DNA of 64,000 nt, taken from the NCBI RefSeq assembly GCF_002087085.1, contig NZ_MWQY01000009.1:1-64000 (forward strand), written 5' to 3'. Shown here piece after piece: positions 6,001 through 9,000 of the stretch (positions within the stretch are counted from its first letter, which is position 1; each line of letters begins with the position of its first letter). The position numbers are program-made.

Positions 6001-9000
6001 GATGGCGACCTTTCCGTCCGGAAACATCTGCAGCACCGCCTCGGCCATTACATGGGCCATGGAGTGGCGTATCCGGTGAAGTTTCTCCTCTTTGGCGTCT
6101 GCCTTGGATTCTGCCGCTTTGATATCCTCTTTGCTCATTGAAGCACCTCGCTTTATCCTGTTGGTTCTTTTGGGCATCTCTGAAAACTATTCTTTTTCCC
6201 ACATTCTGCGTCGTCAAGATTTCCCGCGGTCCTCACCACTTGTTATCACAAGAGTTTGCGGGCGCTACAAAACCTTTCCTCCCTGACTATGAAAAAAATA
6301 CCACGCTTTCAGAGGTTCCCAATATACAAAAAGCCTTCAGGGCTCATCCCACCCACGACCCCTGATACGGTCGTACAGGTAAGGACGAAGGCCTGAAGGC
6401 TCTCCGCGGTTCCACCTTACTTCGCCGTTGGCAGTCTATTTTCCTTTTACGGGTACGACTGACGGCGCCCTCAATTCTTCCCTTTTCCCGCTCTTCAGAG
6501 CGGAAGGCATCACCCTACGGCGGAAGTTTCTCCGGCACAGCTTAATGGGAGACAGTCTCCGTTCAGCCTGCAGCTCGGAAGGGGTTTTCTCCCCGGACGG
6601 AACAGGCGGCTTCCAGCCATCTACCAAACGGCCGCCCTCTCTGGTGATCCGCACCCGAAGATACTCGTCTTCGTCACAGCTTTATATTATTAGATACTAA
6701 AAAGAGCCCCCCCTGTCAACCATAAACCGGTGTCCTGCCCCTGTACCCCATGCGAAGACTGATGGATCTGGCAGTTTCCATGACAAGCCGGGCATTACGC
6801 TCGGTTACATCAGCCTCCGTATAGGACAGGTCCCAGGAGGTACTTACGGCGGCAATAACCATATTCCGGTAGTCCAGGATGGGGGCGGAGACGCATTTCA
6901 TCCCCAGCTCCACCTCTTCATTATCGATGGAGTACCCCCTCTCCCGGGAGATATGAATCTCCCGTATCAGGGATTCCACGTCGGTGATGGTATTGTCTGT
7001 GAACCGGCTCATGGCAGCGGGGTCGACGATCTCCCGTATCTCGTCATCAGAGCAGCCGGTTAGCAGAGATTTTCCCAGAGCCGTACAATACAGGGGGCGT
7101 CGCTGTCCTATAAAACAGTAGTCCCGTATCTCGTTGTGCTTTTCCGTCTTGTCGATATAGACCACCTCACCGTCCTGCTGTATCGCCAGAAAAACCACCT
7201 GCCCGGTCTGCTGCATCAGTTTTCGAAGGTAAACCTGAGCCTCGGTCTTAAGCTCGAGACTGTTGAGCAGGCCGCTGCACAGCTCGATAAAGGCGAGCCC
7301 CAGACGGTAGACATTCGGAGATTCGCTCTTTTCAATGTAGTTACGGTCCCTGAGCACCTTCAGCAGACGATGCACCGTGCTCTTGGGCAGATCGATCTTT
7401 TCGCTGATCTCGGTAAGAGAGAGTCCGCTTTCAAAATGCGACAGCAACTCAAGGATATCAAAGGTACGGTCGATGGATTGTACGCTCATGTTAGGTGTTA
7501 CTCCTTCCGGGTCTGACAATCAACCCATCAACCATACAACTTTTTGAAATCTTTTTCATCTATCGGGCCAGCCAACCACCGTCGACTGCAATGGTATAGC
7601 CCTGAATGTAATCCGAAGCCGGCGACGCCAGAAATACAACCGGTCCCTGCAGGTCTTCCGGAAGCCCCCAGCGTCCCGCGGGTATACGTCCCAGTATTTC
7701 CGCACTCCGCTCTTTGTCTGCGCGGAGAGGTGCCGTGTTGTTTGTGGCCATATAACCGGGGGCAAGGGCATTCACATTGATATTGTACTTTGCCCATTCG
7801 TTGGCCATCAGACGGGTTATTCCCATAACCCCGCTTTTACTCGCGGTATAGGAAGGAACCCTGATACCTCCCTGAAACGAAAGCATGGATGCAATGTTTA
7901 TGATCTTGCCGCCCTGTTTCTGTTTGATGAACTGCCGGGCCGCGGCCTGGCTCATGAAAAAGACCGTTTTGACGTTGATGTTCATGACATCATCCCAGTC
8001 CTTCTCGCTGAAATTTATCGAGTCCTCCCGCCGTATAATGCCTGCATTGTTGACAAGAATATCGATTCTGCCGAATTCTTTGACCGCCTTCTCAATAATT
8101 CCATCTATCGGTTCAATACTCATCAGGTCGGCTTTGATTTCCAGGTATCTCCTTCCTGATTTATCAACAAGAGCGGCGGTCTCCTGGGATTCAACATAAT
8201 CCACACCTACAATATCAGCCCCTGCGGCTGCCAGCCCCAGGGCCATTCCCTGACCAAGTCCGGTGGATGCACCGGTTACGATTGCAACTTTTCCACTGAG
8301 ATCAAATGACAGGCTCACCTTTCTTCTCCTTGTTCCTTATTTGAGAGCTTCCATGGCTATATGGTCCATATCCGTGAATGTCTGGTTTTCGCCAACCATG
8401 CCCCAGATAAAAGCGTAGCGTCCGGTTCCGACGCCGGAATGGATCGACCAGCTGGGCATTATAAGCGCCTCCTTGTTTTTAACGATAATGTGCCTGGTTT
8501 CGGAGGGTTCCCCGATAAAATGGAATACCCGCGTGTTTTCCTCCATACCGAAGTAGAGATACACCTCCATTCGACGATCATGGGTATGGGCGGGCATGGT
8601 GTTCCAGATGGAGCCCTCTTTAAGCAGGGTCATCCCCATTACCAGCTGACAGCTCGCCACCACATCGGGATGCACATACTGGTGAATGGTCCGCTCATTC
8701 GATTCTTCCCGGGACCCGAGATTGACCTCTTTGGCATCCTTCAGGGTGATTATCCTGGAAGGACATGATTTGTGGGCCGGAGCGCTGTTGATATAAAAAT
8801 TCGCAGGATTATCGGAGGATCCGCTTTCGAAGCGGACCTCTTTCGTTCCCGCCCCAAGATAGAGCCCGTCCCGGGGGCCGAGCTTATAGGTCGTCTCTTC
8901 CGTGACGATTCTGCCCGGTCCCCCGATGTTGATGATCCCCGCCTCCCTTCGCTGGAAAAAGAAATCAGCCCCGAGTTCACTTCCCGCTTCAAGAGAAAGT

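What a model noticed while it worked through the whole genome (the two positions that open the first line are those of the whole stretch)
6325..6686. A threonine-specific T-box riboswitch controls thrS: the only T-box of the genome, and conserved across class Spirochaet [...]
The 577-nt gap upstream of threonyl-tRNA synthetase (thrS, g03656, minus strand) holds a complete class I T-box leader (C79:6686-6378) that the ready-made RNA table missed because it scores 75 bits, under Rfam's cut-off of 93. It has the conserved purine-rich motif of stem I, a specifier loop with the Thr codon ACC, the conserved T-box sequence (15 of 18 positions as in the Rfam consensus), and an antiterminator whose 3' half can instead pair into a strong 10-bp terminator followed by five U (ending near 6333). 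A copy of the genome's 150-nt MITE (6320-6172) has landed between the terminator and the thrS ribosome-binding site. It is the only T-box hit in the genome. The element is old: exactl [...]
Evidence so far: cmscan of 20 intergenic stretches at E<=0.01; alignment to RF00230, full length 1-219, E 2e-16; whole-genome search: 1 hit; 151 Spirochaetota genomes with strict filters: 6 with a hit; 41 relatives: 25 with one hit each, 7 over the cut-off; tblastn of ThrRS on the loci: 23 of 24; motifs and specifier in 24 of 24; terminator fold and MITE position. Table 3 of PMC2494555: Spirochaetes 0 of 6 genomes (passage read, call 159); the TBDB paper PMC7778990 does not name spirochaetes in its main text; 3 papers hold 'T-box', 'thrS' and 'Spirochaet', none reports one.
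(Added by a program. Inside this text positions count along the whole contig: contig position 1 is position 1 of the stretch shown here. "Call 12" and the like, gene names such as g00115 and contig names such as C1 are that model's own, and its searches are not shown. The text may have been shortened before it was handed on; [...] marks where a part breaks off. The agent that wrote the report below was given it as the finding of a first reader that could run no searches.)

Follow-up and report, generated by a model that had tools for sequence, protein, structure and literature searches.

The report
Threonine T-box switch upstream of thrS

Summary
Window 6378-6686 (minus strand) matches Rfam T-box RF00230 over the whole model (75 bits, E 6.4e-16, below the curated 93 bits). 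It is the only hit in the 4.2-Mb genome. Stem I, an ACC (Thr) specifier, the T-box sequence (15 of 18) and the UGGA bulge are present. An antiterminator (6379-6420) competes with a long terminator (6328-6405). The genome encodes tRNA-Thr(GGU) with discriminator U73, which pairs with the bulge A. The gene downstream is thrS. A 149-nt MITE (6172-6320; 25 copies) sits between terminator and RBS; a congener keeps the empty site. Of 61 genomes of the class, 35 carry a T-box directly upstream of thrS. Stem I covaries strongly: 18 of 19 pairs, 93% of cells paired against 33-49% when slid. Conservation is patchy: 20 of 20 hit-less genomes scanned lack it upstream of thrS. Nine literature searches found no report of a spirochaete T-box, but 11 of 61 genomes score above Rfam's cut-off, so databases probably list some. 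Verdict: a real, probably functional, new member of a known kind; moderate interest.

The parts
6714..6719 (-). -35-like hexamer TTGACA of the leader promoter (inferred); it overlaps the stop codon of the upstream IclR-type gene
   Evidence: TTGAC(A/T) lies at the same distance upstream of Stem I in 11 of the 12 leaders printed (L014 has TTGACA closer to Stem I). Coordinates. The consensus scan did not report it, because the -10 is poor.
6691..6696 (-). -10-like hexamer TATCTA, 17 nt after the -35 (weak, inferred)
   Evidence: Read. Relatives have CATTAT, CATATT, GATTAT or AATTAT at the same spacing.
6378..6686 (-). T-box leader as matched by Rfam RF00230 (Stem I to antiterminator)
   Evidence: 75 bits, E 6.4e-16, model 1-219; the only hit in the genome.
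6573..6680 (-). Stem I. Base helix GC/GC with the UGA...GA (K-turn) motif; helix GAAG 6669-6672 with CUUC 6578-6581; AGUA 6662-6665; AG bulge AGAGA 6638-6642; distal helix 6631-6636 with 6605-6610; distal loop 6611-6630 with the conserved GGCUGGAA 6611-6618 and a genus-specific insertion
   Evidence: Model alignment; alignment A1; covariation (18 of 19 pairs with compensatory change); coordinates.
6583..6585 (-). Specifier codon ACC (Thr) in the specifier loop GAA-A-ACC-C (6582-6589)
   Evidence: alignment. ACC in 36 and ACU in 1 of 37 thrS-linked leaders (L033 read by eye). The following base is C here; among 28 leaders it is A in 16 and C in 12.
6536..6570 (-). Stem II (CAGGCU / AGCUGUG with one bulged G), with GAA and AUUA internal-loop motifs and a GGAGAC/GUCUCC tip
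   Evidence: alignment; coordinates. Most relatives have it; 4 thrS-linked leaders (L017, L019, L026, L039) have a middle region of only 50-79 nt.
6506..6535 (-). Stem IIA/B region (CGG...CCG hairpin and the following GGGUGAUGCC)
   Evidence: alignment. Sequence conserved within the genus. The pseudoknot itself was not tested.
6488..6503 (-). Extra hairpin CCGCUCU-GA-AGAGCGG: an insertion relative to the Rfam model, of variable sequence within the genus
   Evidence: Shown as an insertion in the alignment; compared among congeners.
6423..6468 (-). Stem III (GCGCCGU...ACGGCG, extended by CAGUC/GACUG)
   Evidence: alignment; coordinates.
6405..6422 (-). T-box sequence AAGUAAGGUGGAACCGCG, with the 7-nt bulge UGGAACC at 6408-6414
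   Evidence: 15 of 18 as in the consensus; the bulge is UGGAACC in 33 of 37 thrS-linked leaders.
6379..6420 (-). Antiterminator: helix A1 GUAAGG/CCUUAC, the bulge, helix A2 GCGGA(G)/(C)UUCGU
   Evidence: it is the minimum-energy fold of the 44-nt segment (-16.3 kcal/mol); it can form in all 37 leaders, with few compensatory changes (L018, L041, L004, L034).
6328..6405 (-). Intrinsic terminator: a long hairpin that takes in the 3' strands of the antiterminator (core GCCUUCAGG 6392-6400 with CCUGAAGGC 6333-6341), then UUUUU 6328-6332
   Evidence: z -5.2.: -47.8 kcal/mol, against -33.9 with the antiterminator forced; the same architecture in 30 of 30 loci.
6172..6320 (.). MITE inserted between terminator and RBS
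   Evidence: 25 copies of at least 120 nt, consensus TIR GGGCACCTCTAAAAAC; the empty site GTATAT|AGAACC is kept in congener G002 (L025), and the same insertion is present in G004 (L029).
6189..6217 (-). Promoter-like TTGACG-17-AAGAAT inside the MITE, facing thrS (not significant on its own)
   Evidence: 1 site found, 0.4 +/- 0.6 expected by chance. TTGACG is conserved in the family; the second hexamer is AAGAGT in the consensus and AAGAAT in this copy.
4363..6138 (-). thrS (threonine--tRNA ligase, 591 aa from the ATG at 6138; RBS GAGGTG 6144-6149)
   Evidence: TIGR00418 at 735.5 bits. Start codon by comparison with congeners.
2839..4353 (-). M32 (Taq-type) carboxypeptidase gene starting 9 nt after thrS; possibly co-transcribed
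   Evidence: PF02074 at 562.8 bits; it follows thrS in 5 of the 9 thrS-bearing loci among L033-L042.

Best explanation
The element is a Thr-specific T-box riboswitch that controls thrS by transcription attenuation. Transcription probably starts about 6685, from a promoter with a conserved TTGACA (inferred). Stem I presents the codon ACC to the anticodon of tRNA-Thr(GGU), and its AG bulge and distal loop are expected to stack on the tRNA elbow (inferred from the family). If the tRNA is uncharged, its free 3' end UCCA pairs with UGGA in the 7-nt bulge and stabilises the antiterminator (6379-6420), so the polymerase reads on through the MITE into thrS and probably into the M32 carboxypeptidase gene behind it. 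If the tRNA is charged, the far more stable terminator (6328-6405, then UUUUU) forms and the transcript ends at about 6328. What is shown here: the sequence and structure elements, their covariation in relatives, the mutually exclusive folds, the matching tRNA gene, and the downstream gene. What is inferred: tRNA binding, the response to charging, the promoter, and that the MITE does not disturb control.
For: The match to RF00230 is full-length and the only one in the genome. The downstream gene is thrS. The specifier is ACC, and the genome encodes tRNA-Thr(GGU) with discriminator U73, complementary to the A of UGGA. The antiterminator is the MFE fold of its own segment (-16.3 kcal/mol); the terminator wins on the full segment at -47.8 against -33.9. 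The terminator region folds with z -5.2. In relatives, 38 matches lie in 37 of 61 genomes, and 35 of them sit directly upstream of thrS, one per genome. The specifier is ACC in 36 and ACU in 1 of 37 thrS-linked leaders. A terminator hairpin plus U-run that swallows the antiterminator's 3' strand is present in 30 of 30 loci, although the stem sequences differ. Stem I pairs in 93.1% of cells against 33-49% when slid; 18 of 19 pairs show compensatory change; 0 of 500 shuffles reach the observed values. As an internal control of my specifier reading, the leader before a PheRS-alpha gene in another class reads UUC. As a weak hint of expression, contigs of 4 metatranscriptome runs from 3 studies cover 6409-6667 without a mismatch; these are contigs only, and DNA carry-over is not excluded.
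Against: The score is under Rfam's curated cut-off (75 against 93), because of insertions in the distal loop, after Stem IIA/B, in Stem III and in the terminator. The base after the specifier is C, not the usual purine. The -10 element is poor (TATCTA). A 149-nt MITE with a promoter-like site lies between the terminator and the RBS and might supply T-box-independent transcription. In 3 of 37 thrS-linked leaders the bulge is UGGU although tRNA-Thr(GGU) of those genomes has U73, so bulge and discriminator do not covary there. The antiterminator helices are nearly invariant, so covariation says little about them. There are no data on RNA ends, tRNA binding or the response to threonine limitation.
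Confidence: 0.88

Rival explanations
1. The leader is a real T-box by descent, but in this genome it no longer governs thrS. Either the MITE supplies a promoter downstream of the terminator, or the C after the specifier and the large insertions have weakened tRNA binding, so the element is a decaying relic.
For: A promoter-like TTGACG-17-AAGAAT lies inside the MITE and faces thrS. In this copy, and in the orthologous copy of G004, the second hexamer is closer to consensus than in the family consensus. The base after the specifier is C. The T-box has been lost repeatedly in the class: at least 10 label changes are forced on the ThrRS tree, so loss is evidently tolerated.
Against: Every conserved motif and both alternative helices are intact. 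The congener without the MITE (G002) has a near-identical leader. C after the specifier occurs in 12 of 28 thrS-linked leaders spread over several families, so it is a tolerated state. One promoter-like site is what chance gives (0.4 +/- 0.6).
Confidence: 0.08
2. The leader senses a tRNA other than tRNA-Thr, for example by reading AAC (Asn) or CCC (Pro) in a shifted register of the specifier loop AAAACCCC.
For: The loop sequence GAAAACCCC contains AAC and CCC in other registers. The usual purine that marks the end of the codon is missing here.
Against: The register given by the covariance model puts ACC at the specifier. In 16 of 28 relatives the loop reads GAA-N-ACC-A, with the marker purine. 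One relative has ACU, also Thr. The regulated gene is thrS in 35 genomes. The bulge A matches U73 of tRNA-Thr(GGU).
Confidence: 0.02
3. The match is a chance resemblance, or a different structured RNA or a small ORF, and not a T-box.
For: The score lies below the curated cut-off. Mechanical ORFs of 72 and 90 aa overlap the leader.
Against: The E-value is 6.4e-16 over the full model. Orthologous leaders reach 93.9-111.8 bits. Covariation follows the T-box Stem I. The tRNA, the specifier and the gene agree with one another.
Confidence: 0.01

Closest known systems
thrS (and thrZ) T-box leaders of Bacillus subtilis and other Firmicutes (Rfam RF00230). PMC2494555 states that thrS is T-box regulated in almost all Firmicutes analysed (passage read). 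Details of the B. subtilis leader are recalled, not checked here.
   Same: The same gene, the same kind of element (Stem I, II, IIA/B, III, antiterminator and terminator), transcription attenuation, and a Thr specifier.
   Different: The host phylum differs. Here it is the single T-box of the genome rather than one of dozens. There are lineage-specific insertions (distal loop, an extra hairpin after IIA/B, a long Stem III, a 78-nt terminator). The base after the specifier is C. A MITE lies in the 5' UTR.
thrS T-box leaders of Anaerolineae (Chloroflexota), found here in L080 (97.8 bits) and L089 (80.3 bits)
   Same: They lie upstream of a ThrRS that falls in an unresolved group with the main spirochaete ThrRS clade. 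They share the GAA-A-ACC-A specifier loop and the UGGA bulge.
   Different: A different phylum. The terminators are shorter and there is no MITE. Whether the two groups share the leader by descent or by transfer was not resolved.
Single or few T-boxes outside Firmicutes: Actinobacteria, Deinococcus (ileS, glyS), Chloroflexi, and Geobacter/Pelobacter leuA (PMC2494555, passages and Table 3)
   Same: One or very few T-boxes per genome in a non-Firmicute phylum.
   Different: Those cases concern ileS, glyS, leuA and trp genes; here it is thrS. Spirochaetes were scored 0 of 6 genomes in that survey.
Translational (class II) T-boxes of Actinobacteria (named as such in PMC7778990, passage read; the mechanism is recalled)
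   Same: One relative (G133, L033) has a thrS leader with no terminator. Instead, the 3' strand of the antiterminator-like helix pairs with the GGAGG just before the ATG, which is the logic of the translational class.
   Different: The window's own element is of the transcriptional class. The G133 variant keeps a full-length Stem I (89 bits, model 1-219).

Membership tests
T-box leader (Rfam RF00230), transcriptional class | Statistically significant, full-length match to the family's covariance model | tested here: met
   75.0 bits, E 6.4e-16, model 1-219 of 219. The score is below the curated gathering score of 93. The deficit comes from insertions visible in the alignment. Orthologous leaders in relatives reach 93.9-111.8 bits.
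T-box leader (Rfam RF00230), transcriptional class | Stem I with a GA (K-turn) motif at its base and a specifier loop with the AGUA / GAA motifs | tested here: met
   UGA...GAG at the base, AGUA at 6662-6665 and GAA at 6587-6589. These columns are invariant or nearly so in 30 leaders.
T-box leader (Rfam RF00230), transcriptional class | Specifier codon that matches the amino acid of the regulated gene | tested here: met
   ACC (Thr) at 6583-6585 and thrS downstream. ACC in 36 and ACU in 1 of 37 thrS-linked leaders.
T-box leader (Rfam RF00230), transcriptional class | Purine directly 3' of the specifier (conserved, not universal; recalled as a family feature) | tested here: not met
   It is C at 6582. 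Among 28 thrS-linked leaders it is A in 16 and C in 12. This is a departure from the consensus shared by a large part of the clade, not a loss peculiar to this copy.
T-box leader (Rfam RF00230), transcriptional class | AG bulge and conserved distal loop of Stem I (platform for the tRNA elbow) | tested here: met
   AGAGA at 6638-6642 and GGCUGGAA at 6611-6618. Both are conserved in alignment A1. The distal loop carries a 12-nt genus-specific insertion. Docking to the tRNA elbow was not tested.
T-box leader (Rfam RF00230), transcriptional class | Conserved T-box sequence with the 7-nt bulge UGGNACC | tested here: met
   AAGUAAGGUGGAACCGCG at 6405-6422, 15 of 18 as in the consensus. The bulge is UGGAACC.
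T-box leader (Rfam RF00230), transcriptional class | Variable bulge base complementary to the discriminator of the cognate tRNA, and a cognate tRNA with the matching anticodon in the genome | tested here: met
   tRNA-Thr(GGU) lies at G000:C1:21139-21211 with U73; the bulge N is A. In relatives the rule fails in 3 of the 5 genomes examined (UGGU against U73); one has a G.U pair and one an A-U pair.
T-box leader (Rfam RF00230), transcriptional class | Mutually exclusive antiterminator and intrinsic terminator (hairpin plus U-run) before the coding region | tested here: met
   The same architecture is present in 30 of 30 loci.
T-box leader (Rfam RF00230), transcriptional class | Base-pair covariation that supports the proposed helices | tested here: met
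   Stem I: 18 of 19 pairs have changes on both sides, 93.1% of cells are paired against 33-49% when slid, and 0 of 500 shuffles reach the observed values. The structure was derived from the same alignment, which favours it. The antiterminator is too invariant to test.
T-box leader (Rfam RF00230), transcriptional class | Read-through that depends on uncharged tRNA | not testable with these tools
   This needs in-vitro transcription or in-vivo starvation experiments. The only expression-related datum is that metatranscriptome contigs cover the leader, which is weak.

The most novel reading that the evidence does not exclude
The thrS T-box is an ancestral trait of this spirochaete class, or arrived once, early, together with a Chloroflexi-like thrS. 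It has since been lost ten or more times, mainly in small-genome lineages. It has also diversified inside the phylum: converted to a Shine-Dalgarno-sequestering translational switch in one lineage, and recruited with a probable Tyr specifier to a transporter gene and an AMP-binding enzyme gene in another. That would make Spirochaetota a second phylum, besides Actinobacteria, in which the change from transcriptional to translational T-box control can be studied.
Probability: 0.35. Interest if true: 0.55.

Novelty: new member of a known kind. Interest (0 to 1): 0.4.

Why it matters
T-boxes are treated mainly as a Firmicute device with a few outposts; the one survey I could read that counted spirochaetes scored 0 of 6 genomes (PMC2494555). 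A single, well-conserved, thrS-specific T-box in many spirochaetes of this class has three consequences. It extends the known range of the mechanism. It explains how thrS is regulated in these bacteria, which have no other T-box. It also gives a compact natural series (with and without Stem II, with a terminator or with a sequestered SD, with and without a MITE in the UTR) for studying how T-boxes evolve. In practice it shows that Rfam's cut-off hides two thirds of these leaders: 26 of 37 genomes with a hit score below it.

Tried and rejected

(2) Three T-box papers could not be read because they are not held: Vitreschak et al. 2008 (PMC2271356 and its DOI), the MMBR review whose id I recalled as PMC2650889, and Kreuzer and Henkin 2018 (PMC6329474). 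Their statements on taxonomic range are therefore unchecked. The TBDB supplement that is held has 122 characters and no hit.

(3) The genome-contig scan with ThrRS returned a mixed sample of phyla and not the close relatives. It served only to name the nearest labelled records (Spirochaetaceae and Spirochaetales MAGs, 53-71% identity) and to supply outgroups.

(4) The maximum-likelihood tree with treekit's default method did not finish in 288 s. A FastTree tree was used instead, with SH-like supports only and a midpoint root. Rows left out: L009, L018, L021 and L023 (fragments under 350 aa), L037 (fragment) and L058 (no upstream DNA).

(5) Bulge/discriminator covariation across genomes was tried as an independent test. 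It did not come out: all 5 genomes examined have U73, whatever the bulge base.

(6) Metatranscriptome contigs cannot show RNA ends, strand or level. Parts of the stretch without cover, and contigs that stop at 6409-6411, are not used as evidence.

(7) The promoter scan found nothing for the leader's own promoter. The promoter in the parts list rests on comparison of relatives alone.

(8) Stem II, the IIA/B pseudoknot and Stem III were not tested for covariation. The middle regions range from 50 to 186 nt and I built no model for them.

(9) The terminators of L034-L042 were read by eye only and were not folded.
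Full report
WHAT IS THERE

Window 6378-6686 on the minus strand matches the Rfam T-box leader model RF00230 from its first to its last position: 75.0 bits, E 6.4e-16, against a curated gathering score of 93. 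A search of the whole assembly (G000: 4.22 Mb, 79 contigs, 97% complete) finds this match and no other at E<=1. The ORF downstream on the same strand is thrS (TIGR00418, 735.5 bits against a cut-off of 383.65). Comparison with congeners puts its start at the ATG at 6138, behind GAGGTG. The gene upstream is an IclR-type regulator gene that ends at 6716. Three matches to the FlaA family PF04620 in the genome, against none in 14 control genomes, fit a spirochaete. The nearest labelled ThrRS records are Spirochaetaceae and Spirochaetales MAGs.

ANATOMY (coordinates checked)

- Stem I spans 6573-6680. It has the UGA/GA motif at its base, the helix GAAG/CUUC, AGUA and GAA in the specifier loop, the AG bulge AGAGA (6638-6642), and a distal loop with the conserved GGCUGGAA.
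- By the register of the model, the specifier loop reads GAA-A-ACC-C. The codon is ACC (6583-6585) and the base after it is C, not the usual purine.
- Stem II (6536-6570), the IIA/B region (6506-6535) and Stem III (6423-6468) are all aligned by the model.
- The score deficit comes from insertions: in the distal loop, an extra hairpin at 6488-6503, a long Stem III, and a long antiterminator loop.
- The T-box sequence AAGUAAGGUGGAACCGCG (6405-6422) agrees with the consensus at 15 of 18 positions.
- The antiterminator (6379-6420), with the 7-nt bulge UGGAACC, is the minimum-energy fold of its own 44 nt (-16.3 kcal/mol).
- On the segment that runs to the U-run, a long hairpin (6333-6405) followed by UUUUU (6328-6332) takes in the 3' strands of both antiterminator helices. 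It wins by -47.8 against -33.9 kcal/mol. A 121-nt stretch around it folds with z = -5.2.
- These two folds are the standard T-box alternative: termination by default, read-through only if something stabilises the antiterminator.

THE LIGAND

ARAGORN finds 49 tRNA genes in the genome, among them one tRNA-Thr(GGU). Its anticodon pairs with ACC. Its discriminator is U73, which pairs with the A of UGGA. CCA is not encoded.

I tried to turn this into a covariation test across genomes. In five relatives whose leaders carry UGGU (three), UGGG (one) or UGGA (one), tRNA-Thr(GGU) always has U73. The match therefore holds in this genome and in the 33 of 37 leaders with UGGA. The three UGGU leaders would have a U.U mismatch, so there is no covariation at this position.

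RELATIVES

- Counts. In 61 genomes of the same class (G000 included), 37 have a match at E<=0.001, 11 of them over Rfam's cut-off. There are 38 matches in all.
- Linkage to thrS. tblastn with the window's ThrRS shows thrS directly downstream of 35 of the 38 matches, one per genome (28 of 30 loci; 7 of the other 8).
- Exceptions. The three exceptions lie in one genus (G022, G055). There the specifier loop reads GAA-UAC-A and the bulge is UGGU. The genes behind them encode a sodium:solute symporter (L002, L003) and an AMP-binding enzyme (L035).
- Specifiers. Of the 37 thrS-linked leaders (35 from the class sample, plus G133 and G167 from the phylum sample), 36 read ACC and 1 reads ACU.
- Terminators. 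All 30 loci folded have a long hairpin plus U-run that swallows UUCGUCCUUAC, although the stem sequences differ from genome to genome.
- Covariation. On a MAFFT alignment of 30 Stem I sequences, 93.1% of cells pair, against 33-49% when the partners are slid. 18 of 19 pairs show changes on both sides, and none of 500 shuffles reaches the observed values. The structure came from the same alignment, which favours it; the margin is nevertheless large.

HOW CONSERVED

Presence is patchy.

- By my count, thrS-linked leaders occur in 22 of 39 sampled families.
- Of the 24 genomes without any hit, 20 were re-scanned with lax filters over about 1.1 kb upstream of thrS, and none has a T-box. Four (G021, G038, G058, G059) were not re-scanned.
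- The thrS genes of G022 and G055, whose T-box matches lie elsewhere, were used as T-box-negative rows in the tree without such a re-scan.
- Five named Spirochaetaceae or Spirochaetales MAG loci with 900 nt of upstream DNA also lack it.
- On a FastTree ThrRS tree of 77 rows, 29 T-box-positive and 26 negative sequences interleave in one well-supported spirochaete clade. Well-supported branches force at least 10 changes of state. This fits early presence with many losses. The negatives include most of the genomes of 1.0-2.6 Mb.
- The tree is of one gene and is rooted at the midpoint, so direction is not shown.
- That clade sits in an unresolved group with Kiritimatiellota and with two Anaerolineae whose thrS also has a T-box with the same GAA-A-ACC-A loop and UGGA bulge.
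- Seven genomes of the class carry a second, distant ThrRS type; three of them (G028, G041, G133) have a T-box.
- In a sample of 151 genomes of the phylum, 6 have a hit. Two are outside the class: UUC before a PheRS-alpha gene, and a leader with a very short Stem I before an aminotransferase gene. Only 14 candidates per genome were scored in that search, so its sensitivity was low.

THE MITE

Window 6172-6320 is one of 25 copies (at least 120 nt) of a repeat with 16-nt terminal inverted repeats in its consensus. Congener G002 (ThrRS 95% identical) has the uninterrupted site GTATAT|AGAACC, 41 nt between U-run and ATG. G004 shares the insertion. The insertion lengthens the UTR to about 190 nt. 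It carries a promoter-like TTGACG-17-AAGAAT that faces thrS, but one such site is what chance gives in this stretch. Its effect is unknown.

EXPRESSION

Contigs of four metatranscriptome runs from three studies cover 6409-6667 without a mismatch. Contigs show neither ends nor strand, and DNA may be present in such libraries, so this is only a weak hint that the leader is transcribed.

LITERATURE

- Nine full-text searches combined T-box (or T box, or T-box riboswitch) with spirochaet-, spirochete, Spirochaetota, Treponema or Sphaerochaeta. They returned no paper that reports a spirochaete T-box.
- Passages read: PMC2494555 (Table 3: Spirochaetes, 6 genomes, 0 T-boxes); PMC7778990 (no mention); PMC8632094; PMC4987935, which shows thrS T-boxes only in Firmicutes although its data set includes Spirochaeta aurantia; PMC10319736 (T-box only in the reference list); PMC10418091 (no occurrence).
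- Three key papers are not held.
- Because 11 of 61 genomes exceed Rfam's cut-off, database annotation probably already labels some of these leaders.

VERDICT

This is a genuine, complete T-box of the transcriptional class, specific for tRNA-Thr(GGU), and very probably functional. It is a new member of a known kind in an under-reported phylum. The mechanism is ordinary. The interest lies in the distribution and in the variants seen in relatives.

Noticed in passing
L002 (G055) 1501-1753 and L003 (G022) 1501-1763; L035 (G055) 219-465: One genus of the class (genomes of 1.5-1.7 Mb) has T-boxes of 102-126 bits. The specifier loop of L002 and L003 reads GAA-UAC-A (probably Tyr), that of L035 GAA-U-UAC-C, and the bulge is UGGU. 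They lie upstream of a sodium:solute symporter gene (PF00474) and an AMP-binding enzyme gene (PF00501), not upstream of thrS. The thrS genes of these genomes belong to the second ThrRS type.
   Followed up: partly
L033 (G133:C27), leader at locus 2516-2762 on the minus strand and the 80 nt downstream: This thrS leader (89 bits, ACC specifier, UGGU bulge) has no terminator or U-run. Instead CCUUAC, the 3' strand of helix A1, pairs with the GGAGG 8 nt before the ATG in a hairpin (-20 kcal/mol for the 81-nt segment). It looks like a translational, SD-sequestering T-box outside Actinobacteria.
   Followed up: partly
L031 (G127) 244-479; L032 (G130) 2910-3100 on the minus strand: Two T-boxes lie in other classes of the phylum. 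One (106 bits) has a UUC (Phe) specifier before a PheRS-alpha gene (PF01409). The other (54 bits) has a very short Stem I (loop UUAACA, perhaps AAC) before a class I/II aminotransferase gene.
   Followed up: partly
window 2839-4353 (minus strand): An M32 (Taq-type) carboxypeptidase gene starts 9 nt after the thrS stop codon. The same gene follows thrS in 5 of the 9 thrS-bearing loci among L033-L042, from four families (f1, f9, f24, f36), so it may be co-transcribed and fall under T-box control.
   Followed up: partly
window 6172-6320 and 24 other places in G000: A MITE family of about 150 nt has the consensus TIR GGGCACCTCTAAAAAC, an internal GC-rich hairpin, a conserved TTGACG and a GGAGGAAAG motif. 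The copy here and its orthologue in G004 carry AAGAAT where the family consensus has AAGAGT.
   Followed up: partly
ThrRS genes of the class (tree): Two distant ThrRS types occur in the class. The main type is about 58-100% identical to the window's. The second type (51-58% identical; G022, G028, G038, G039, G041, G055, G133) groups nearer to Lactobacillales and Fervidobacterium sequences. G023 and G028 also have a second, 39%-identical partial match.
   Followed up: partly
window 6409-6411: RNA-library contigs from two studies stop here, inside the T-box bulge and helix A2: X15 at 6409 with an adapter-like loose end, X18 at 6411. This could be a processing site or mean nothing; contigs cannot show RNA ends.
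   Followed up: no
G057:C21:1774-3486 and G025:C270:4798-6537: The thrS matches of two congeners each contain one in-frame stop (TAA and TAG respectively). G057 also has the weakest T-box match (37.8 bits), in which the 5' half of Stem I appears to be replaced. G025 has no T-box.
   Followed up: no
G000, tRNA list: ARAGORN lists a tRNA-Asp with anticodon ATC beside two with GTC, and a tRNA-SeC. I did not examine either.
   Followed up: no
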